This document shows, one piece after another, positions 20,196 through 30,180 of a stretch of 64,000 bases of DNA (the first letter of the stretch is position 1; each line of letters begins with the position of its first letter). The notes below the pieces were generated by a model. That model was not told the origin of the DNA. It saw nothing but the letters and a program-made list of their open reading frames with translations, and did no database searches. The stretch is from a virus. Its lineage: Duplodnaviria; Caudoviricetes. Where the stretch lies: the IMG/VR virus record IMGVR_UViG_3300028591_000110, positions 1 through 64,000 of that record. One strand, given 5' to 3'. The position numbers were made by a program, and so were the translations under genes.

Positions 20196-20550
20196 AGAAA
20201 GAAGAAAAAACGCAAAGAAAGAAGCAGCGCTGAAAAAGCTATATGCCAATCTTTGGAAAAATCTGCGGGAGATGAATCTGGAGGAACTTGTAAAGGCGGC
20301 TGCGGAAGACGACGCGCTGAAGGACGGAGACCGCGTGAAGCTGGATCTGCAGCGGATTCAGGGCAGACAGGACTATCGGCGCATGCAGCGCGAGTATAAA
20401 ATCTTTGTTGAGACGCACAAGGACGATATTTTTACGGTGAAGCTGCTTCAGAATGAGCGTTATCCGGCGATCGTGACATTCTATGAGGATGACACTTGGC
20501 ATTTTTGGAGCGGCGATCTGAAAAGGATGCGGACGGAGGGATCGGAATAA
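20185..20550 (+). CDS. Hypothetical protein (MNREERR start)
   Basis: ORF track, operon context. Confidence 0.7.
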   Translation: MNREERRKNAKKEAALKKLYANLWKNLREMNLEELVKAAAEDDALKDGDRVKLDLQRIQGRQDYRRMQREYKIFVETHKDDIFTVKLLQNERYPAIVTFYEDDTWHFWSGDLKRMRTEGSE

Positions 20551-23339
20551 CGAATCGGTCAGTATGCATTGTGTCGGCGGACGCGAAGGATTTGTATTTG
20601 GCCTGCTATTCCGCGCCTTCCAGCACGGAATACAGCGTTCTATATCGCAAGGGTCAGAACGCCGGCGAGATCAACACAAGACGGTTTATCAACACACTGG
20701 ATTACAGTCTTGATCTGATCAAGCTGAGAGAAGTCTATGAAAAGGTGTACCGGCGTCTTGATTTCTCCTTTGAAAAGAGAGGCAGAGAGTATTGCAAAAG
20801 TGTCATCAATGTCACTTTCAAGTACAGTGTCAAGGAATACAACCTGTTTCACGACAAGACGTATGTCAAGCTCGGCTATGTGCCGGCGGATGTGGAGCTG
20901 CACGATAATATCTGCGTGAAAAACGGAGAACTGATTGCGATCCGCGTGGAGAATCCGGTCGAGGCTCCCGTTTCTGCGGATATTCTCGGGAAATACTTTA
21001 CATTTGACGATGGCGAATACCGTCTGAACAAGGCGCTGAAGGTTGTACATACCGTAGCAGATCTGAGAAGGATGCTGTATCAGAACGGATTTGTGTGCGA
21101 CGGCGTGCGATATCGACGCTTCAAGCGTTCCAGCGGCAGCAGCCGCGTCGGAAAGTGTCTCTTTATCGATGATCGCCTGTATGACCGGATGCATAAATGG
21201 GAAATGTGCGGGCTGAAAGTAAAGGAAGGGCAGGAAGTGGATCTTGCTGCCCTGGAAGCCTATATTGCTCTGACGCTGAGCAGCATTATCGGGACGATTC
21301 CGCTTCGGCCTGAAAACTTCCTTGTGATCGACGACTTCGAAAGTGTATTTCAGGATCGTGCGGTTGTATCTCGCATCGGAGACGACGGCTGGCTGGAGTC
21401 CAAGCCGGAGGATGTAGAGGTGAAAAACAGTATTTGGGACGGTCAGTCTCTGATCGACAAGTCTGCGATGGGAGAGTATCAGGATTTCGGTATGATCCTG
21501 CTGCGCAACCGCTTCTTCAAGTCTGCCTGCTTCAACACCAACATTCAGCAGTTTTTCGCGGATCACGGTATCACGGACATTTCGCAGCTCAACGGGTTCA
21601 CGCTCGCGGAAAAGCTGGAAGACGTTCTGATCATCACGACGCCGAGCAGCATCAAGTACCAGAAATTCGGCAGTCTTGAAACGTGGCTGCGGATGCTGGA
21701 TGAAGACGGCGAGTTCGGTATTGTGAAGCACGAGAAGAAAACACACTTTTTCGATGGCCGCATGGTCATGACGCATTATCAGTTGCTGAATACGCTGCAG
21801 ATGACGCAGGAAGAGGTAGACGAGTTCGTGAAGCCTTCACTGGATTATCTGCGCATGATTCACACAGATCCGGCTGTTTTAAGGTATCATATCAAGTTCT
21901 CCGGCTATGGTGAGCCGATCAACCCGGCGCAGTCCGCAAACGAGGTTGTATATCAAATGCTCGGGATCACGGACAAGTTCTTCTACACGAAGCTGTGCGA
22001 CGATTTCAAGCATGATGTGGTCAAGTCCTTCAAGAAGGCGCTGAGCCACGGGCATATCCTCGTAAACGGAAACTATTCAACCTTGCTTGGCAACCCGATT
22101 GAGATGCTGTATGCGTCTATCGGGGAGTTTGACGGAGAAAGTCAGATCGGCGTTGGGAATATCTACTGCAAGCGTTTCCCGTTCGGGCAGCGGCTGCTTG
22201 GATCAAGGTCGCCCCACGTCACTGCGGGCAACATTCTATTAACGAATAATGAAGACAACGCGGAGATCTCGAAGTACCTCAATCTCACAAATGAGATTGT
22301 TTGTATCAACAGCATCGGGGAAAACATTCTGATGCGTTTGTCGGGTGCAGATTTTGATTCGGACACGATGCTGCTGACAGACCACCCGTTGTTGATTATG
22401 GCGGCGGAGCGCAACTATCACCGTTTTCTGGTTCCAACCAGCATGGTTGAGGCAAAGAAGGTTGTCAGACATTATACGCGAGATGAGCAGTCTGATCTGG
22501 ATATCAAAACTTCGGTCAACAAGATCGGCGAGATCGTGAATCTGAGTCAGGAACTGAACACGATGATGTGGGATCGCATGAACAATGGCGAGCAGTTTGA
22601 AGATGTGGAGGAGCTTTATTGCGACATCGCGAAGCTGGATGTGCTCAGCGGCATTGAAATTGACAAGGCCAAGAAGGAGTTTGCGGTCAACAGCGTCGGA
22701 GAAATCAAGAGACTAAAGAAAAAATACAGCGCACTGGATGAGACCGGGCGACAAGTGAAACCGAATTTCTTTGGAAAGATCGCCAGAGGGAAGGGGTATT
22801 ACGACAGTAAGCGCAAAAACTATCAATTTCACGACACGACGATGGATTATTTGCAGCACACGCTGAATGCCTATCGCGCCGGCAAGGCCAAAGATGGCGT
22901 CATTCCGTTCTCGGATCTTCTCATTTCTTCGGATGATGTAAGCGCACACCGGGTTTGGCTGCCGCAGGTCAGCAGAATCATCGGATTGGTTCGCAACATG
23001 AGATCGCAAATTCAGGCGGTATGGAACAATACGGATGACGGTCTTGACAATGAGACGAAGACTGTTATCACAGCGGAGATCCGTGAGAACTGCTACAGTT
23101 ATATCAAGTCCATTCAGATCAGCAAGTCCACGGCATACCGTCTGTTGCTTGAGATTGAGGCGGCTGAAAACAAGGATATCGGAAGAAGTCTGTTCTACAC
23201 GCTGTTCTCGCTGCCGAACGAAAGTTTCTTGCGATTGATTGAGGCGCAAAGAGAGGATATCCCTGTCATTGAGGAAGTGCATGGTGATGATTATGACCTG
23301 CAGATTTACTCGTTCAAGTTCAGCAAAATTGCATCATAA
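20547..23339 (+). CDS. YonO-like single-subunit DNA-dependent RNA polymerase (eukaryotic RdRP-related double-psi fold)
   Basis: RSSGSSRVGK, WDGQSL, RSPH and catalytic GADFDSD. About 930 aa. Start uncertain (ATA 20547 after GGAGG, or TTG 20496). Confidence 0.85.
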   Translation: MTNRSVCIVSADAKDLYLACYSAPSSTEYSVLYRKGQNAGEINTRRFINTLDYSLDLIKLREVYEKVYRRLDFSFEKRGREYCKSVINVTFKYSVKEYNLFHDKTYVKLGYVPADVELHDNICVKNGELIAIRVENPVEAPVSADILGKYFTFDDGEYRLNKALKVVHTVADLRRMLYQNGFVCDGVRYRRFKRSSGSSRVGKCLFIDDRLYDRMHKWEMCGLKVKEGQEVDLAALEAYIALTLSSIIGTIPLRPENFLVIDDFESVFQDRAVVSRIGDDGWLESKPEDVEVKNSIWDGQSLIDKSAMGEYQDFGMILLRNRFFKSACFNTNIQQFFADHGITDISQLNGFTLAEKLEDVLIITTPSSIKYQKFGSLETWLRMLDEDGEFGIVKHEKKTHFFDGRMVMTHYQLLNTLQMTQEEVDEFVKPSLDYLRMIHTDPAVLRYHIKFSGYGEPINPAQSANEVVYQMLGITDKFFYTKLCDDFKHDVVKSFKKALSHGHILVNGNYSTLLGNPIEMLYASIGEFDGESQIGVGNIYCKRFPFGQRLLGSRSPHVTAGNILLTNNEDNAEISKYLNLTNEIVCINSIGENILMRLSGADFDSDTMLLTDHPLLIMAAERNYHRFLVPTSMVEAKKVVRHYTRDEQSDLDIKTSVNKIGEIVNLSQELNTMMWDRMNNGEQFEDVEELYCDIAKLDVLSGIEIDKAKKEFAVNSVGEIKRLKKKYSALDETGRQVKPNFFGKIARGKGYYDSKRKNYQFHDTTMDYLQHTLNAYRAGKAKDGVIPFSDLLISSDDVSAHRVWLPQVSRIIGLVRNMRSQIQAVWNNTDDGLDNETKTVITAEIRENCYSYIKSIQISKSTAYRLLLEIEAAENKDIGRSLFYTLFSLPNESFLRLIEAQREDIPVIEEVHGDDYDLQIYSFKFSKIAS

Positions 23340-25508: not shown

Positions 25509-25537
25509 TTGACAAACCGGAATCTGTCTGATACAAT
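25509..25537 (+). promoter_or_regulatory. Sigma-A promoter of the tRNA cluster
   Basis: TTGACA-17 bp-TACAAT with extended TG. Confidence 0.85.
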
Positions 25538-25713: not shown

Positions 25714-25777
25714 AAAGCGCAAACAGCAACCGTTGTGAATGTTTGGCGCCATTTTTGCCAAGTTTTCATTGCGCTTT
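25714..25777 (+). ncRNA. Stem-ACAGCAA element A (hairpin cargo)
   Basis: AAAGCGC-AA-ACAGCAA...GCGCTTT. Confidence 0.65.
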
Positions 25778-25809
25778 GATTTTTTTATTCATAGCAAGCC
25801 ATAAAAGAC

Positions 25810-25885
25810 GGGGCTGTAGCTCAGTTGGGAGAGCATCTGCTTTGCAAGCAGGGGGTCTGGGGTTCGAGTCCCCATAGCTCCACCA
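25810..25885 (+). tRNA. tRNA-Ala(UGC)
   Basis: Loop TT-TGC-AA, G3-U70, CCA. Confidence 0.93.
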
Positions 25886-25891
25886 TTCTTC

Positions 25892-25967
25892 GGGCGTGTA
25901 GCTCAGATGGAAGAGCAGCAGACCTTTAATCTGTTGGTCGCGGGTTCAAGTCCCTCCACGCCCACCA
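25892..25967 (+). tRNA. tRNA-Lys(UUU) with C33
   Basis: GCAGA-CCTTTAA-TCTGT, CCA. Confidence 0.88.
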
Positions 25968-25972
25968 AGCGA

Positions 25973-26048
25973 CTGGGCGTAACTCAGATGGAAGAGTGCG
26001 AGATTTGGGATCTCGAAGCCGCGAGTTCGAGTCTCGCCGCTCAGACCA
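25973..26048 (+). tRNA. tRNA-Pro(UGG)
   Basis: Loop TT-TGG-GA, CCA. Confidence 0.9.
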
Positions 26049-26065
26049 AATAATTACAGAAGGGT

Positions 26066-26275
26066 GTGAATGTGTTGAACGACAAGTCCAGCAAAGCATC
26101 GTCAAGCTCAGGGATCGGATTTTGCGGTCTTCTGACGATTGCGTTTATCGTGCTGAAATTGCTCCATGTGATCGAATGGTCATGGGTGTGGGTTTTGGCG
26201 CCGATGTGGATTGGCCTTTTGATCGGGATGATTATTCTTGCGGTCGTCGTGGTCATTGCGCTGAAAGTCGATTAG
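26066..26275 (+). CDS. Small two-TM membrane protein (GIGF.GLLTI.FIVLKL..VI.WSW.WVLAP family)
   Basis: Recurrent phage membrane-protein pattern. Exact start uncertain. Confidence 0.75.
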   Translation: MNVLNDKSSKASSSSGIGFCGLLTIAFIVLKLLHVIEWSWVWVLAPMWIGLLIGMIILAVVVVIALKVD

Positions 26276-26294
26276 GGAGTGTCCTGGAGGATTC

Positions 26295-26474
26295 ATGAGT
26301 ATGAAACAGACAGATGTTCAGGAATGCACCGTGCGATGTGCGGAGTGTTCAAATCATGACATGACATTCACGTTCTCTGACGGGTATGAAGTAACGTGCG
26401 GATATCTGCTGCGGCATGGTAAAGCCAGAGGATGCCCTGCTGGTGATGAATGCAAGAGGTTTGAAGAAGGATAA
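26295..26474 (+). CDS. 59-aa Cys-rich protein
   Basis: GGAGG RBS and CAEC...CGY...GCPAGDEC. Below the ORF-track cutoff. Confidence 0.55.
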   Translation: MSMKQTDVQECTVRCAECSNHDMTFTFSDGYEVTCGYLLRHGKARGCPAGDECKRFEEG

Positions 26475-26574
26475 GCGAATTGAGTAGTGAGTAAAGATCC
26501 TCACAAAGCGTGCCGCAATGTACACCCATTCATAACAGAGACCGTACAACTCTTTGGATGGTGCGGCAGGGACT

Positions 26575-26651
26575 AGACGTATGGTGTAGCGGGAGCAAGC
26601 CCGATGGAGTGCCACGGGAGGGTGTAAGTTCGATTCTTACATGCGTTGACC
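26575..26651 (+). ncRNA. tRNA-like RNA with aberrant anticodon arm
   Basis: T-arm GTAAG-TTCGATT-CTTAC and acceptor GACGTA/TGCGTT. The CCCG/CGGG stem closes an 11-nt loop. Confidence 0.55.
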
Positions 26652-26850
26652 GAAAAGAAAATCTCTTAAAAGCGTGATGTGTGAAGTAACTGAGAAACGG
26701 CTTCGATGACTGAAGATTAAAAATGCCACTTGGTTGGGTTGCGCAGCCCGGTCAAGGCTCAGTTCCCATAGGTGTGAGACCTGTGGCTCAATTCCAAAAA
26801 GATCTGATCGTAGGACGCGATCATGATAATCAAAAGAATGTTCAAAGATC

Positions 26851-26905
26851 AGACGCGAACAGCAACTTTATGATGCAGGATATAGGATTTGCGTTTTTAG
26901 CGTCT
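26851..26905 (+). ncRNA. Stem-ACAGCAA element B (hairpin cargo)
   Basis: AGACGC-GA-ACAGCAA...GCGTCT. Confidence 0.65.
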
Positions 26906-26918
26906 AGCATTACACAAA

Positions 26919-27087
26919 AAGGCACGCACAGCAATCTTTTTAAAAAGAAGATATGTTTTGAACAATGAACGAACGAGATCAGGATCTGATCTGAGATGAC
27001 GGTGCCTGCACCGGAGCCTTTTATTCGATTCCGCGCGTAGCCCCGATTTGGCCGCGTGACGGTATCGCAACTTTCCTTTTGTGCCTT
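26919..27087 (+). ncRNA. Stem-ACAGCAA element C (about 145-nt multi-hairpin cargo)
   Basis: AAGGCAC-GC-ACAGCAA...GTGCCTT. Confidence 0.6.
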
Positions 27088-27095
27088 GATAATAA

Positions 27096-27171
27096 TGGTG
27101 GGTAGCTCAGTCGGTAGAGCCCCGGCCTGTTAAGTCGGTTGTCGTGGGTTCGAGTCCCACCCCATCAGCCA
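27096..27171 (+). tRNA. tRNA-Asn(GUU)
   Basis: Loop CT-GTT-AA, GCCA end. Confidence 0.92.
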
Positions 27172-27238
27172 AACCACATTTTAAGCGAAAAAGCTCGGCG
27201 GGCAGCTTCCAAACATGGTTTTACAACCGCCACGATAT

Positions 27239-27313
27239 TGCGGAGTGGAGGAGCGGTTTCCTTGTCGGCCTCATAAGCCGAAGACACGGGTTCGAATCCC
27301 GTCTCCGCAACCA
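27239..27313 (+). tRNA. tRNA-Met(CAU), initiator-like
   Basis: Loop CT-CAT-AA with fMet-like acceptor and D arm. Anticodon stem is TCGGC/GCCGA rather than three G-C pairs. Confidence 0.85.
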
Positions 27314-27435
27314 GGGGAGTGCGTGCGCTACACTTCAAAGCGACCCCGAAAACGGAAAAAGAAGTGTGACTTTTCGGAATAGGCGAGACCGATGACGCAA
27401 TGTGATAACAGCGCACAGCCGATAGACGGCTGTAT

Positions 27436-27512
27436 GGCCGGTTAGCTCAGCCGGTTAGAGCACTTGCCTTACAAGCAAGGGGGCGCAGGTTCGAGCCCTG
27501 CACCGGCCACCA
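27436..27512 (+). tRNA. tRNA-Val(UAC)
   Basis: Loop CT-TAC-AA, CCA. Confidence 0.93.
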
Positions 27513-27521
27513 ACTGAATAA

Positions 27522-27597
27522 GCGGGCGTGGTGTTTAATGGTAACATCCCGGCCTTCCAAGCCGGTGTTGCGGGTTCAAGTCCCGTTGCCCGTTCCA
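27522..27597 (+). tRNA. tRNA-Gly(UCC)
   Basis: Loop CT-TCC-AA, TCCA end. Confidence 0.92.
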
Positions 27598-27600
27598 CCA

Positions 27601-27683
27601 GGGCGAGTGATGAAATTGGCAGACATGTCGGATTTAGGTTCCGGTGCTTCGGCGTGCGGGTTCAAATCCCGCCTCGCCTACCA
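27601..27683 (+). tRNA. tRNA-Leu(UAG)
   Basis: Loop TT-TAG-GT, long variable arm, CCA. Confidence 0.92.
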
Positions 27684-27704
27684 AACACTTTTGCAATGAA
27701 AATG

Positions 27705-27765
27705 AGAGCGCTTGCAGCAACTTTTCTTGGAATAGACTTTTAATCTATAAACCCAAAGGCGCTCT
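27705..27765 (+). ncRNA. Stem-GCAGCAA element D carrying a Lys(UUU) anticodon stem-loop
   Basis: AGAGCGC-TT-GCAGCAA...ATAGA-CTTTTAA-TCTAT...GCGCTCT. Confidence 0.7.
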
Positions 27766-27772
27766 GGATTAT

Positions 27773-27857
27773 GGCGATGTGATGGAATCGGCAGACGTGT
27801 CTGACTCAAAATCAGATGCCGCAAGGCGTGTGGGTTCAAGTCCCACCATCGCCACCA
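27773..27857 (+). tRNA. tRNA-Leu(CAA)
   Basis: Loop CT-CAA-AA, long variable arm, CCA. Confidence 0.92.
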
Positions 27858-27879
27858 ATACTGCAAAGTAAGGAATTTT

Positions 27880-28296
27880 ATGACAAGGTTTCAGCAAAAC
27901 GGGCATGATTGCCGCGTGAAGGAGAAGCTTTCCACCGGGCAGACGATAGACATGTTTTTCGAGTGTATTGATGAATATAAAGGCACTCTCTATTACAATA
28001 TCTCTTTGTCTGTTTACTCGAAGCGAAAGCACGCTTACAAAAACGAAGACGAGAAGAAGATCACCGGGAAGAACCCGGTTGAAACCGTGTTGGCTGCCAG
28101 AAGGATCTTTTATGAAATTGAGGATCATATCATCGCCGAATGCAAAGCCGCAGGTCTGGATGTAGTGTTCGAGGTATTCTGGACAGACAAGCGAAGAAGA
28201 GATGCGTACTATAAGGCATTATCCAAGGATGGATATCGGTATGGTATGCGCGATGATGTGAAGTGCCTGGAAAAACGGGTATTTCATGATGAATGA
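27880..28296 (+). CDS. Hypothetical protein within the tRNA cluster
   Basis: AAGGA RBS, 138 aa. Confidence 0.7.
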   Translation: MTRFQQNGHDCRVKEKLSTGQTIDMFFECIDEYKGTLYYNISLSVYSKRKHAYKNEDEKKITGKNPVETVLAARRIFYEIEDHIIAECKAAGLDVVFEVFWTDKRRRDAYYKALSKDGYRYGMRDDVKCLEKRVFHDE

Positions 28297-28305
28297 ATCG
28301 ACGAT

Positions 28306-28384
28306 AAGTCTCACACAGCAATTTTCTTGGTAAAAACAAATGACTGCAAATCATATGTCGTGGTTCAAATCCACATTGAGGCTT
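28306..28384 (+). ncRNA. Stem-ACAGCAA element E carrying a Cys(GCA) tRNA body
   Basis: AAGTCTC-AC-ACAGCAA, ATGA-CTGCAAA-TCAT, T-arm GTGG-TTCAAAT-CCAC, closing GAGGCTT. No CCA. Confidence 0.7.
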
Positions 28385-28408
28385 GCTTGAAACATTTTTA
28401 TTCCTCCA

Positions 28409-28521
28409 AAGTCGCTGACAGCAATGATTTACTCCGGCCTCCGGAGAGTAGTTCAAGGGTAGAATATGCGCCTGATAATCGCAAGCTGCGGGTTCGAATC
28501 CCGCCTTAATAAATGCGACTT
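28409..28521 (+). ncRNA. Stem-ACAGCAA element F carrying an Ile(GAU) tRNA body
   Basis: AAGTCGC-TG-ACAGCAA, D arm TAGTTCAAGGGTAGAAT, loop CT-GAT-AA, T-arm GCGGG-TTCGAAT-CCCGC, closing GCGACTT. Confidence 0.7.
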
Positions 28522-28606: not shown

Positions 28607-28611
28607 AAAGT

Positions 28612-28898
28612 CAATCGGCGCGGCGATTAAGCTTGGTAAGCGAGGCAAAGTCTTTATATCATCTACTGTGGGGAGAATGTTAAATCCCGCCGAGTCGCGC
28701 CGATATGAACAGAGAGATTGCCGCAGAGTGGATGATGCGGGATAAAAATATCGACCATCCTCTATGGGTAGGGAGGCTGAAATGTTGTCGGCCACATAGA
28801 GTGAGTCCTAGGCCCCATGGCGCTAATGGAGCATGCGTGAATGGAGAAACTCGTTAATCGATGACACTCCTAAAAAGTGCCTGAAACGCTAGGCATTA
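28612..28898 (+). ncRNA. Unidentified structured RNA with probable pseudoknot
   Basis: ATCGGCGCGGC/GTCGCGCCGAT stem. Loop ATCATCTACTGTGG is complementary to the downstream CCGCAGAGTGGATGAT. Confidence 0.45.
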
Positions 28899-28901
28899 TA
28901 A

Positions 28902-28976: not shown

Positions 28977-29081
28977 AAGGACAAGGCAAAGTCGGTAAAA
29001 CCCCTCGTGGGCGGTCTGTAGTGGTTAAGCGTCTTGCGGTAGTTTTCTGTTGATTCCGCAACGAAGCACAAAGAACAGATA

Positions 29082-29257
29082 GATGCGGTGGCGGAATAGA
29101 CCGGGTAAGACGCCGGGTGCTGAGATAGTCAGCGCCGCTGTATAGCGGAGGAATAGTAGACGCTTCAGGTGCTTGATGTCGCAAGGGTGCACACTTGAAA
29201 TAGCACAAGGGGTACAAAAATCGACATCCTGTAAGGTGCAAATCCTTACCCGCATTG
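29082..29257 (+). ncRNA. Oversized tRNA-like RNA (176 nt)
   Basis: Acceptor GATGCGG/CCGCATT, split D arm GGCGGAATA...GTAGACGC and T-arm GTAAGG-TGCAAAT-CCTTAC. Confidence 0.6.
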
Positions 29258-29262
29258 AATAT

Positions 29263-29423: not shown

Positions 29424-29499
29424 GGCGCTGTAGTCGAGAGGGCTAAGACGCCGGCCCTTCAAGCCGGAGACGCGGGTTCGATTCCCGCCAGCGCTGCCA
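29424..29499 (+). tRNA. tRNA-Glu(UUC) with C33
   Basis: CCGGC-CCTTCAA-GCCGG, GCCA end. Confidence 0.88.
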
Positions 29500-29511
29500 A
29501 AGGAGATTTTT

Positions 29512-29715
29512 ATGGCTGACAGAATTGCAAGAAAGATTCCGGCAAGCGAGAGCGGCGCAGGGAATACGATTCATACAAAGAGCGGCAGAGTTTATCGGAT
29601 TACGATGAATCCGGACAAGCGGGTTCATACAATCTGGGAGGTCGTAGAAGGCGGCTTCCGGAAGATCGCAAGCGCGGATTCGCCGCTGAAGCTGCATAAG
29701 CATGTGCAGGAATAA
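29512..29715 (+). CDS. Small basic hypothetical protein
   Basis: AAAGGAG RBS. Confidence 0.65.
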   Translation: MADRIARKIPASESGAGNTIHTKSGRVYRITMNPDKRVHTIWEVVEGGFRKIASADSPLKLHKHVQE

Positions 29716-29718
29716 CAT

Positions 29719-29805: not shown

Positions 29806-29814
29806 TTGATATAT

Positions 29815-29899
29815 GCCGAGTGACGCAATCCGGCGATTGCACCGGTCTTGAAAACCGTGGGTACGAGAGTATGGGGATCGACACCTCCGCTCGGCGCCA
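29815..29899 (+). tRNA. tRNA-Ser(UGA), atypical T-loop ATCGACA
   Basis: Loop CT-TGA-AA, variable arm, GCCA end. Confidence 0.8.
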
Positions 29900-30154: not shown

Positions 30155-30180
30155 GACCAGAGTAACGCTCTGGTCTTTTT
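30155..30180 (+). terminator. Intrinsic terminator ending the RNA cluster
   Basis: GACCAGAG-TAACG-CTCTGGTC-TTTTT. Confidence 0.8.

What the first reader, a model, noticed from the sequence alone, without database searches (positions are those of the whole stretch)
25714..28521. Six 'stem-RCAGCAA' RNA cassettes that wrap tRNA fragments inside the tRNA cluster
Seen: six elements (25714, 26851, 26919, 27705, 28306, 28409) share one architecture, a 6-7 nt arm, 2 nt, (A/G)CAGCAA, variable cargo, then the complementary arm. The arms differ in sequence but covary: AAAGCGC/GCGCTTT, AGACGC/GCGTCT, AAGGCAC/GTGCCTT, AGAGCGC/GCGCTCT, AAGTCTC/GAGGCTT and AAGTCGC/GCGACTT, with two invariant C-G pairs. Cargo is 35-145 nt: a bare Lys(UUU) anticodon stem-loop, a Cys(GCA) body, an Ile(GAU) body, or unrelated hairpins. 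None ends in CCA. Known analogy: bacterial Y RNAs (YrlA) join a protein-binding terminal stem to a tRNA-like module, but their conserved motif is different. Inference: a modular handle-plus-cargo RNA system. It could display decoy substrates for anticodon nucleases or T-box/synthetase sensors, or the handle could be a processing, circularisation or protein-loading signal. I do not recognise it as a named family.
Basis: partly seen in the sequence, partly recalled or inferred. Interest (0 to 1): 0.92.

Follow-up and report, generated by a model that had tools for sequence, protein, structure and literature searches.

The report
Phage Y-like RNAs with ACAGCAA handle
Six small RNA genes hidden among this rumen phage's tRNA genes share a conserved "handle" (a short closing stem plus ACAGCAA) that in many unrelated phages lies beside the gene for a Ro60-shaped RNA-binding ring protein, which this phage also encodes, so they are most likely an undescribed cousin of Y RNAs that displays tRNA look-alike parts.

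Summary
Six plus-strand elements (25714-28521) have a 6-7 bp closing stem, 2 nt, RCAGCAA, a variable cargo and the complementary arm. They lie only in the tRNA array. No Rfam family reaches threshold; the best sub-threshold hit is Dictyostelium Class I RNA (RF01414, 17.8 bits).

Related phages keep the same architecture in tRNA-like slots, and the arms covary. A lead from earlier notes of this scan, which found this family before on other DNA, was tested here and held.
- The same genome encodes a DUF2828 protein. Its AlphaFold model matches Ro60 over its full length (Z 22.7).
- Five more handle RNAs lie directly upstream of that gene, and an RNA ligase gene lies two genes downstream.
- Around 80 diverse DUF2828 genes, a model built only from this phage's clade found 110 hits, all on the gene's strand.
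- 43% of cargoes carry an anticodon-arm mimic, most often Lys(UUU).

Most likely these are Y-RNA-like partners of a Ro60-like protein: a new variant of a known kind, absent from the papers I could search. Binding, RNA ends and biological role remain untested.

The parts
25509..25537 (+). Sigma-70-type promoter-like site at the head of the tRNA/handle-RNA array (TTGACA, 17 nt, TACAAT, with TG)
   Evidence: 11 of 12 matches. It is a consensus match only; transcription start not shown.
25714..25777 (+). Handle RNA 1 (64 nt): arms AAAGCGC/GCGCTTT, spacer AA, ACAGCAA, hairpin cargo. It starts directly after the CCA of tRNA-Thr(CGU).
   Evidence: covariance model R1 gives 27.6 bits, E 2e-4.
26851..26905 (+). 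Handle RNA 2 (55 nt): 6-bp arms AGACGC/GCGTCT, spacer GA, ACAGCAA, hairpin cargo. It starts 2 nt after the RF02925 '6A' hit.
   Evidence: R1 gives 37.1 bits, E 1e-6.
26919..27087 (+). Handle RNA 3 (169 nt): arms AAGGCAC/GTGCCTT, spacer GC, ACAGCAA, 146-nt multi-hairpin cargo. It ends 8 nt before tRNA-Asn.
   Evidence: R1 hits the 5' part at 19.4 bits. A related strain's contig keeps the flanks but has 129 other letters in place of 26941-27071 (table 5).
27705..27765 (+). Handle RNA 4 (61 nt): arms AGAGCGC/GCGCTCT, spacer TT, GCAGCAA. The cargo is an anticodon-arm mimic of tRNA-Lys (stem ATAGA/TCTAT, loop CUUUUAA). It lies between tRNA-Leu(UAG) and tRNA-Leu(CAA).
   Evidence: R1 gives 49.7 bits. 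Orthologues in relatives keep the loop, with a covarying stem ATCAA/TTGAT. The best Rfam hit is RF01414 at 17.8 bits.
28306..28384 (+). Handle RNA 5 (79 nt): arms AAGTCTC/GAGGCTT, spacer AC, ACAGCAA. The cargo is a tRNA-Cys(GCA)-like anticodon arm plus T arm.
   Evidence: (tRNA model 22 bits). Its cargo resembles that of a free-standing handle RNA next to the DUF2828 gene.
28409..28521 (+). Handle RNA 6 (113 nt): arms AAGTCGC/GCGACTT, spacer TG, ACAGCAA. The cargo is a tRNA-Ile(GAU)-like D, anticodon and T arms without an acceptor stem. It ends 8 nt before tRNA-Asp.
   Evidence: tRNA model 43.9 bits at 28442-28512; not called by ARAGORN.
30155..30175 (+). Terminator-like hairpin plus T run after the last tRNA; probable end of the array's transcription unit.
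   Evidence: 9-bp stem, 5 G-C pairs, TTTTTCATTT. Pattern match only.

Best explanation
The six elements are genes for small, Y-RNA-like RNAs. Each is transcribed with the tRNA array and freed by the enzymes that trim the neighbouring tRNAs. Its 5' and 3' ends pair into a 6-7 bp stem that presents the single-stranded ACAGCAA.

This handle is the docking site for the phage's own Ro60-like ring protein. That protein is a 516-aa DUF2828/DUF7788 protein with a vWA domain and an intact MIDAS motif, encoded at about 112.4-114.0 kb of the same genome, outside the window. The variable cargo is a tRNA part (a Lys anticodon arm, a Cys body, an Ile body) or other hairpins. The particle would display this cargo to enzymes that recognise tRNA. 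By analogy with Rsr/YrlA/RtcB, and because an RNA ligase gene lies in the protein's operon, the most likely role is to protect or repair the tRNA pool during infection, by decoying or sensing anticodon nucleases or by recruiting repair or modification enzymes.

Shown: the architecture, its conservation and covariation, the gene-neighbourhood link, and the Ro60 fold of the protein model. Inferred: binding, RNA processing and biological role.
For: 1. Structure and conservation.
- 23 elements from this phage's clade align in register. Five of seven stem pairs change on both sides.
- In 100 distinct hits from diverse phages, all seven pairs covary and 99.4% of cells are paired. The slid controls give 28-49%.
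- In relatives the elements lie 2-5 nt after one tRNA and 7-16 nt before the next, like tRNA genes.

2. Protein.
- The genome has a DUF2828 gene that also matches DUF7788, with a weak vWA_Ro60 hit. The MIDAS residues D-S-S...T...D are invariant or nearly so in 69 homologues.
- The AlphaFold2 model has pLDDT 90.9.
- Foldseek's top 12 listed PDB hits are all Ro60/TROVE.
- VIA-align gives Z 22.7, rmsd 4.1 A over 417 residues to Xenopus Ro60 (1yvp_A). The top 10 are all Ro60; vWA-only hits score 11.8 or less.

3. Linkage.
- Directly upstream of that gene, on its strand, lie two free-standing handle RNAs and three tRNA-like genes with the handle as an internal hairpin.
- In 80 loci around DUF2828 homologues of 38-67% identity, ACAGCAA density is 1.03 per kb within 2 kb on the gene strand. 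It is 0.13 per kb further away and 0.087 on the other strand.
- 190 strict elements lie on the gene strand and 15 opposite; permuted-motif controls give 1-16 per strand. 67 of 80 loci have at least one within 2 kb.
- Model R1, built only from this phage's clade, found 110 hits at E<=0.01 in those loci, all on the gene strand.
- Cultured phages show the same: Zakai, LMTA-57 and the FelixO1-type phage 'dune'. Vibrio phage Luma, whose cluster holds 17 annotated tRNA genes and which lacks DUF2828, has no R1 hit.

4. Cargo. 81 of 189 unique elements carry an anticodon-arm-like hairpin, against 12.7 +/- 3.1 in shuffled cargo. UUU (Lys) is the commonest at 23, with 0.55 expected.

5. Operon. On the minus strand the order is Band-7, handle RNAs and tRNAs, DUF2828, class-V aminotransferase, RNA ligase (phrog_968). 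This parallels the Ro60/Y RNA/RtcB operon (PMC7790460 abstract; PMC4201824).
Against: - No binding experiment exists, and no tool here models protein-RNA contacts.
- The six window elements lie about 84-88 kb from the DUF2828 gene, so for them the link rests on sharing the handle with the adjacent set.
- The protein does not match the Pfam TROVE model. Its profile reaches Ro60 chains only at E 0.009-0.23.
- The known Ro60 handle motifs (GNCGAAN0-1G, GGUCCGA, CGAA) are absent.
- The RNAs that most resemble the handle, Dictyostelium Class I RNAs, are reported to bind an RRM protein directly. An ACAGCAA handle can therefore have another partner.
- Within this phage's clade, relatives without DUF2828 also have only 1-6 tRNAs in the locus examined (the 10 kb on each side of the query ORF). 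That co-occurrence is confounded and not independent.
- RNA ends and abundance are not shown.
Confidence: 0.6

Rival explanations
1. The handle binds a host factor, or another phage protein, and not DUF2828. The DUF2828 gene merely shares operons with tRNA-related genes.
For: Class I RNAs with the same motif are reported to bind an RRM protein directly in Dictyostelium. The six window elements are far from the DUF2828 gene. DUF2828 genes often lie beside tRNA genes anyway.
Against: Elements cluster within 500 nt to 2 kb of DUF2828 genes on the same strand in 67 of 80 diverse loci, many without a large tRNA array. In whole-genome scans of Zakai and LMTA-57 the only R1 hits lie next to the gene. 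The protein has the fold of a known Y-RNA-binding ring.
Confidence: 0.13
2. The elements act without a dedicated protein. They would be free decoys or sponges, such as tRNA anticodon-arm mimics that soak up host anticodon nucleases. The stem plus ACAGCAA would only stabilise the RNA or define its ends.
For: Anticodon-arm mimics are strongly enriched, with Lys(UUU) first. In this phage the real tRNA-Lys(UUU) and tRNA-Glu(UUC) have C33, whereas element 4 keeps the canonical CUUUUAA loop. From my own knowledge, tRNA-Lys(UUU) is the classic target of PrrC-type nucleases.
Against: An invariant 7-nt single-stranded motif and two near-invariant C-G pairs are more than stability needs. More than half of the cargoes have no anticodon-like hairpin. 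The tight linkage to one protein family is left unexplained.
Confidence: 0.12
3. The handle is an RNA-processing element of polycistronic tRNA transcripts: a nuclease entry site, a self-cleaving ribozyme or a circularisation signal.
For: The elements lie in tRNA-like slots with tRNA-like spacing. A G follows the 3' arm in 88% of cases. From my own knowledge, ribozymes are known in phage tRNA arrays.
Against: Many elements stand next to DUF2828 genes with no flanking tRNA. Conserved letters lie on one strand of an asymmetric loop, with no conserved partner or pseudoknot. No Rfam ribozyme family matches, even at E<=10. Handles also occur as internal hairpins inside tRNA-like genes.
Confidence: 0.08
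4. They are decaying tRNA pseudogenes, or DNA-level repeats such as miniature transposons or recombination sites, with no RNA function.
For: Elements 5 and 6 contain recognisable tRNA bodies lacking acceptor stems. This phage lacks the tRNA-Cys and tRNA-Ile genes that its relatives have.
Against: Strand bias is 110:0 relative to the neighbouring gene. There is compensatory change in all stem pairs, with 79 different arm sequences among 154 elements. A motif absent from tRNAs is conserved across phages of very different hosts.
Confidence: 0.03

Closest known systems
YrlA-type bacterial and phage Y RNAs with Ro60/Rsr (Rfam RF02553; Chen et al. 2014, PMC4201824)
   Same: Small RNAs whose 5' and 3' ends form a stem carrying the protein-binding site, with recognition mainly through a conserved 5'-strand motif. 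They have a variable or tRNA-like module and are encoded within a few kb of a Ro60-fold protein on the same strand. There are often several per genome, and they are linked to RNA ligase genes. The Zakai element even has the permuted T-arm/D-arm order of YrlA.
   Different: The motif is ACAGCAA, not GNCGAAN0-1G or GGUCCGA. Rfam YrlA scores are 21 bits or less against a threshold of 69. The protein is DUF2828/DUF7788 and does not match Pfam TROVE. Cargo is often only an anticodon-arm mimic. Six copies lie far from the protein gene, inside a tRNA array.
Ro60 of Thermus phage phiLo with Yrl1 and Yrl2 (PMC12135203; PDB 9KOP, 9L5Y)
   Same: A phage-encoded Ro60-fold ring that binds phage-encoded small RNAs lying upstream of its gene. 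It is a structural match of the model here (Z 14.4-15.4).
   Different: phiLo's RNAs were picked by a CGAA motif in a large internal bulge. The protein is a TROVE-domain protein.
Class I RNAs of dictyostelid amoebae (Rfam RF01414; Kjellin et al. 2021, PMC7919456)
   Same: A short stem joins the 5' and 3' ends. ACAGCAA follows the 5' strand within a conserved 11-nt motif. The rest is variable, and the median length is about 60 nt. The C positions of the stem and the ...CUG 3' end are shared. The Rfam consensus reads GaUcuCCUUACAGCAAUua...GagAuCUG. RF01414 is the best Rfam hit of element 4 and of the Zakai element.
   Different: Scores of 17.8-20.9 bits fall below the 41.5 threshold. The spacer is 2 nt of any base here, where Class I has CUU. 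Class I RNAs are eukaryotic genes with their own promoter element. Their reported direct partner is an RRM protein. The paper found none outside Dictyostelia.
tRNA (Rfam RF00005)
   Same: Same array, spacing and strand. The 7-bp terminal stem resembles an acceptor stem. Cargoes reuse D, anticodon and T arms.
   Different: No cloverleaf with a paired acceptor end, no CCA, and not called by ARAGORN. ACAGCAA replaces or precedes the D region.

Membership tests
Y RNA / YrlA (RF02553) | Score at or above the Rfam gathering threshold (69 bits) | tested here: not met
   Best hits in the window are 17-21 bits, on T-arm regions only. The Zakai element scores 21.4 bits. No gathering-level hit appears in 11 loci.
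Y RNA / YrlA (RF02553) | Conserved Ro60-binding motif GNCGAAN0-1G (bacteria) or GGUCCGA (animals) near the 5' end | tested here: not met
   The elements carry NN-ACAGCAA instead. The motif definition comes from PMC4201824.
Y RNA / YrlA (RF02553) | Terminal stem formed by the 5' and 3' ends, supported by covariation | tested here: met
   5 of 7 and 7 of 7 pairs change on both sides.
Y RNA / YrlA (RF02553) | Encoded within about 4 kb of a Ro60 orthologue on the same strand | tested here: inconclusive
   Not met for the six window elements, which are about 84-88 kb away. Met for five sister elements in the same genome and for 67 of 80 diverse loci. The protein is Ro60-like by fold only.
Y RNA / YrlA (RF02553) | Physically bound by the Ro60 protein | not testable with these tools
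   Needs RIP, CLIP or EMSA.
Dictyostelium Class I RNA (RF01414) | Score at or above the Rfam gathering threshold (41.5 bits) | tested here: not met
   17.8 bits for element 4 and 20.9 bits for the Zakai element.
Dictyostelium Class I RNA (RF01414) | Short 5'/3' stem directly followed by the 11-nt motif ending in ACAGCAA | tested here: inconclusive
   The stem and ACAGCAA are present in all six. The first four motif letters (CCUU in the Rfam consensus) are not conserved here: there is a C and then two variable nt.
Dictyostelium Class I RNA (RF01414) | Eukaryotic gene with the upstream DUSE promoter element, restricted to Dictyostelia | tested here: not met
   These are phage genes inside a bacterial-type operon. 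The restriction is as stated in PMC7919456.
tRNA (RF00005) | Cloverleaf with a paired 7-bp acceptor stem closing the D, anticodon and T arms | tested here: not met
   ARAGORN calls none of the six. In element 6 the Rfam hit's own acceptor positions do not pair; the outer stem is separated from the body by a 24-nt linker after ACAGCAA on the 5' side and by 10 nt on the 3' side.
Ro60 / TROVE protein family (for the partner protein) | Match to the Pfam TROVE domain (PF05731) | tested here: not met
   No match at E<=1 in the whole genome. vWA_Ro60 scores 14.3 bits, below its cut-off. The profile against PDB reaches E 0.009 at best, with Ro60 as the top four hits.
Ro60 / TROVE protein family (for the partner protein) | HEAT-repeat ring plus a C-terminal vWA domain with MIDAS, over the full length | tested here: met
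   Predicted model only: Z 22.7 over 417 residues to 1yvp_A, with the top 10 all Ro60. Foldseek's top 12 listed hits are Ro60. MIDAS residues are conserved.

The most novel reading that the evidence does not exclude
The stem-plus-ACAGCAA handle would be the recognition element of one ancient ribonucleoprotein family built on DUF2828 (Ro60-fold) proteins. This family would run from phages of many bacterial phyla to eukaryotes. The unexplained Class I RNAs of Dictyostelium would then be its eukaryotic members. Their unidentified pull-down partner DDB_G0281243 may be the DUF2828-type protein. In phages the particles would display anticodon-arm mimics, above all Lys-UUU, to blunt or sense host anticodon nucleases.
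Probability: 0.2. Interest if true: 0.92.

Novelty: new variant of a known kind. Interest (0 to 1): 0.8.

Why it matters
Ro60 and Y RNAs are a conserved but poorly understood RNA-surveillance system. A second, very large branch appears to exist with its own handle and interchangeable tRNA-mimic cargo. More than 6,800 protein clusters match at E<=0.001, and 706 cultured-phage records carry the gene.

This would do three things.
- It would assign partners to the DUF2828 family, for which I found no functional study.
- It would explain the "structured spacers" in many phage tRNA islands, including those of easily handled phages such as FelixO1-type coliphages, Listeria phage LMTA-57 and mycobacteriophages.
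- It would give a testable route into how phages defend their tRNA supply against host anticodon nucleases.

The shared handle with Dictyostelium Class I RNAs could also open a long-standing question about that RNA class.

Tried and rejected
- Rfam at gathering and at E<=10 over the array: no family for the elements and no ribozyme.
- blastn of the array against 50,697 phage records: only tRNA-level matches, no close relative.
- A permissive arm scan (6 of 7 pairs, one motif mismatch) was far too noisy and was dropped.
- Model R1 misses elements 5 and 6 (long cargo) and the FelixO1-type variant at E<=0.001, so R1 counts are lower bounds.
- Own-genome searches for RtcB, CCA-adding enzyme and T4 Rnl1 found nothing. 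The Rnl1 model also rang in no control genome, so that blank says little.
- PF09414 gave only a sub-threshold hit; PHROGs then named that gene an RNA ligase.
- Sequence search of the protein against PDB: no hit for the single sequence.
- Looking for longer or fused homologues, hoping for named eukaryotic ones: two uninformative hits.
- The Atlas look-up returned only the protein's own family.
- Aspegren 2004 is not held and Avesson 2011 has no PMC id, so I could not check what DDB_G0281243 is. The supplement of Chen 2014 is not held.
- Reads: only contigs were available. A sheep-gut metatranscriptome holds an identical 1,276-nt contig over 25857-27132 at depth 17.5, against 3-4 on the upstream genes. 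That is at most a weak hint of transcription and says nothing about RNA ends.
- The co-occurrence of elements and DUF2828 within this phage's own clade is not independent evidence. The DUF2828-less relatives also lack large tRNA arrays in the locus examined.
- No protein-RNA complex prediction is offered.

Full report
**What is there**

The window is the first 64 kb of a 135.6-kb IMG/VR virus record rated complete. The record comes from sheep or cattle gut material. Positions 25.5-30.2 kb hold a plus-strand array of 18 ARAGORN tRNAs. A near-consensus promoter-like site at 25509-25537 and a terminator-like hairpin at 30155-30175 bracket the array.

Each has a 7-bp arm (6 bp in one), 2 nt, ACAGCAA (GCAGCAA once), 34-146 nt of cargo and the complementary arm. 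Six RCAGCAA on one strand in 2.7 kb compares with about 0.5 expected. In a scan of 80 phage loci, only about one control site in ten acquires such arms by chance. A whole-genome pattern search found the 5' handle pattern only here on the forward strand.

Cargo:
- Element 4 carries a Lys(UUU) anticodon-arm mimic.
- Element 5 carries a Cys(GCA) anticodon arm plus T arm.
- Element 6 carries a tRNA-Ile(GAU) body without an acceptor stem.
- The other three carry unrelated hairpins.
- None is followed by CCA.

**Is it a known RNA?**

No Rfam family reaches its threshold, and no ribozyme family appears even at E<=10. Searched alone, element 4's best hit is the Dictyostelium Class I RNA model (RF01414) at 17.8 bits against a threshold of 41.5. 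The printed consensus, GaUcuCCUUACAGCAAUua...GagAuCUG, shows the same design: a short terminal stem with C at the same stem positions, ACAGCAA, and a 3' ...CUG. Kjellin et al. describe Class I RNAs in just these terms and found them only in dictyostelids.

**Relatives**

The ORF upstream of the array recovered 47 related loci. Those with large tRNA arrays carry the same architecture: GRRRCRC, then mostly UA, then ACAGCAA. The elements lie in conserved positions, 2-5 nt after one tRNA and 7-16 nt before the next, for example between tRNA-Leu(UAG) and tRNA-Leu(CAA). The orthologue of element 4 keeps the loop CUUUUAA while its stem covaries.

An alignment of 23 elements puts both arms in register, and five of seven pairs change on both sides. 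The elements were chosen for having arms, so the percentage paired is partly built in. The variety of arm sequences is not.

**The protein link**

My first guess was tRNA-derived stable RNAs with an unknown protein partner. Earlier notes of this scan reported the same handle in at least 39 other genomes, travelling with a Ro60-like DUF2828 protein. I tested that lead here.

- **The gene.** The same genome has a 516-aa DUF2828/DUF7788 gene on the minus strand at about 112.4-114.0 kb. Pfam TROVE does not match. A 69-sequence alignment shows an intact MIDAS motif.
- **The fold.** The AlphaFold2 model (pLDDT 90.9) matches Ro60 over its whole length. Foldseek's top 12 listed PDB hits are all Ro60/TROVE. 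VIA-align gives Z 22.7, rmsd 4.1 A over 417 residues to Xenopus Ro60. The top ten are all Ro60, including the Thermus phage phiLo protein, whereas vWA-only matches stop at Z 11.8. At sequence level the profile reaches Ro60 chains only weakly (E 0.009-0.23), although they are its top four hits.
- **A second set of handle RNAs.** Directly upstream of this gene, on its strand, lie two free-standing handle RNAs. One has a Cys anticodon-arm cargo like that of element 5. There are also three tRNA-like genes in which the handle is an internal hairpin (arm', loop, arm, NN, RCAGCAA). Two of them end in CCA and pass the Rfam tRNA threshold. A first-reader note on this genome describes the same set.
- **The operon.** It runs Band-7/SPFH, handle RNAs with two tRNAs, DUF2828, a class-V aminotransferase (the cysteine-desulfurase fold), then an RNA ligase.

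**Generality**

The protein family is large: 6,889 cluster representatives at E<=0.001. Around 80 viral loci holding homologues of 38-67% identity:
- ACAGCAA is 8-12 times denser within 2 kb on the gene's strand than elsewhere.
- 190 strict elements lie on the gene strand and 15 opposite. Permuted-motif controls give 1-16 per strand.
- 116 of the 190 lie within 500 nt of the gene, and 67 of 80 loci have at least one within 2 kb.
- A covariance model built only from this phage's clade found 110 hits at E<=0.01, all on the gene strand. All seven pairs covary among 100 distinct sequences.
- There are 79 different arms among 154 unique elements.

The family consensus is [A/U/G]AGRCRC-NN-ACAGCAA-(A/U-rich)...GYGYCU[U/A/C], followed by G in 88% of cases.

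The gene occurs in 706 cultured-phage records, where it is variously annotated 'RNA-binding protein', 'vWFA protein' or 'Ro-like RNA binding protein'. Mycobacterium phage Zakai, Listeria phage LMTA-57 and the FelixO1-type phage 'dune' all have handle elements next to it. In Zakai and LMTA-57 those are the only model hits in the whole genome. Vibrio phage Luma, whose cluster holds 17 annotated tRNA genes and which lacks DUF2828, has none. One Zakai element joins the handle to a permuted T-arm/D-arm module like that of YrlA.

**Cargo**

Of 189 unique elements, 81 carry an anticodon-arm-like hairpin, against 12.7 +/- 3.1 in shuffled cargo. UUU (Lys) is by far the commonest at 23 against 0.55 expected, followed by Ser, Asn and Leu. 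The sequences are unique but not phylogenetically independent.

In this phage the true tRNA-Lys(UUU) and tRNA-Glu(UUC) have C at position 33. All 17 tRNA-Lys(UUU) genes of relatives have the canonical loop, and so does element 4. That fits a decoy idea, but it is a single case.

**Interpretation**

Known Y RNAs have four features in common with these elements. They have a terminal stem with the Ro60 site, read mainly on the 5' strand. They have a variable or tRNA-like module. Their genes lie within 4 kb of Ro60 on the same strand. They are linked to RNA repair genes (PMC7790460).

Everything but the motif and the protein's sequence family matches. I therefore read the six elements as Y-RNA-like partners of the phage's Ro60-like protein, placed in the tRNA array so that they are made and trimmed with the tRNAs. 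Their likely role is to display tRNA parts to tRNA-directed enzymes during infection.

Binding, ends and function are inferences. Rivals are a different partner, protein-free decoys, a processing element or ribozyme, and pseudogenes or DNA repeats. They are listed with their odds.

**Caveats**

- Within this phage's own clade, near-complete genomes with elements mostly have DUF2828 and those without elements lack it. The latter also have only 1-6 tRNAs in the locus examined, so this adds little.
- RNA evidence is limited to contigs of one metatranscriptome.
- In the held library, DUF2828 appears in five papers only incidentally. No paper joins ACAGCAA with Ro60 in a relevant way. The library is incomplete, so prior description elsewhere cannot be excluded.

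**Verdict**

The family is real and conserved, and I found no description of it in the papers I could search. It is a new variant of the Ro60/Y-RNA kind, and this scan has already met it on other DNA. This window adds three things:
- a genome in which six copies have moved into the main tRNA array;
- two copies that have swallowed the bodies of tRNA-Cys and tRNA-Ile, genes this phage otherwise lacks;
- a clear Lys anticodon-arm mimic.

Noticed in passing
window 25892-25967 and 29424-29499: tRNA-Lys(UUU) and tRNA-Glu(UUC) have C instead of the near-universal U at position 33 (loops CCUUUAA and CCUUCAA). All 17 tRNA-Lys(UUU) genes in related loci have CUUUUAA. This may be an anticodon-loop change that evades a host nuclease.
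   Followed up: partly
window 26800-26848: A hit above threshold to Rfam RF02925 '6A RNA' (47.3 bits against 41.2) ends 2 nt before handle RNA 2. No 6A hit appeared in seven other loci searched. Its function and its relation to the handle RNAs are unknown.
   Followed up: partly
window 28306-28521, compared with L008, L012 and L022: This phage has no ARAGORN tRNA-Cys(GCA) or tRNA-Ile(GAU), which its relatives carry as ordinary genes. Those two bodies appear here only inside handle RNAs 5 and 6.
   Followed up: partly
window 26940-27072: A contig from another sheep-gut run matches the flanks of handle RNA 3 but has 129 different letters in place of its cargo (table 5). This suggests cargo replacement between close strains with the handle kept.
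   Followed up: no
L008 11726-12314 and 12649-13065; also L010 and L042: Related phages carry a ROOL RNA (RF03087, 343-382 bits) and a tmRNA (72-93 bits) inside the same tRNA array. The window has neither.
   Followed up: no
window 26576-26648, 29814-29896, and the gaps 28607-28901, 28977-29262 and 29500-29718: There is a weak tRNA-like hit (26 bits) and a tRNA-Sec-model hit (42.3 bits, below 47; probably a long-arm tRNA missed by ARAGORN). Several 200-300-nt stretches of the array have no called gene.
   Followed up: no
window 20496-23339: A 947-aa ORF upstream of the array has a sub-threshold match to eukaryote-type RNA-dependent RNA polymerase (PF05183, E 0.003). From my own knowledge, crAss-like phage RNA polymerases give such hits.
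   Followed up: no
window 26066-26474 and 27880-28296: Three small ORFs lie inside the RNA array and match no family: 69 aa (membrane-like), 59 aa (Cys-rich) and 138 aa.
   Followed up: no
L136 2060-3052 (Zakai) and the own genome about 115.3-116.1 kb, minus strand: A Band-7/SPFH membrane-protein gene lies just upstream of the DUF2828 gene and its RNAs both in this rumen phage and in Mycobacterium phage Zakai. It may be a conserved third component.
   Followed up: no
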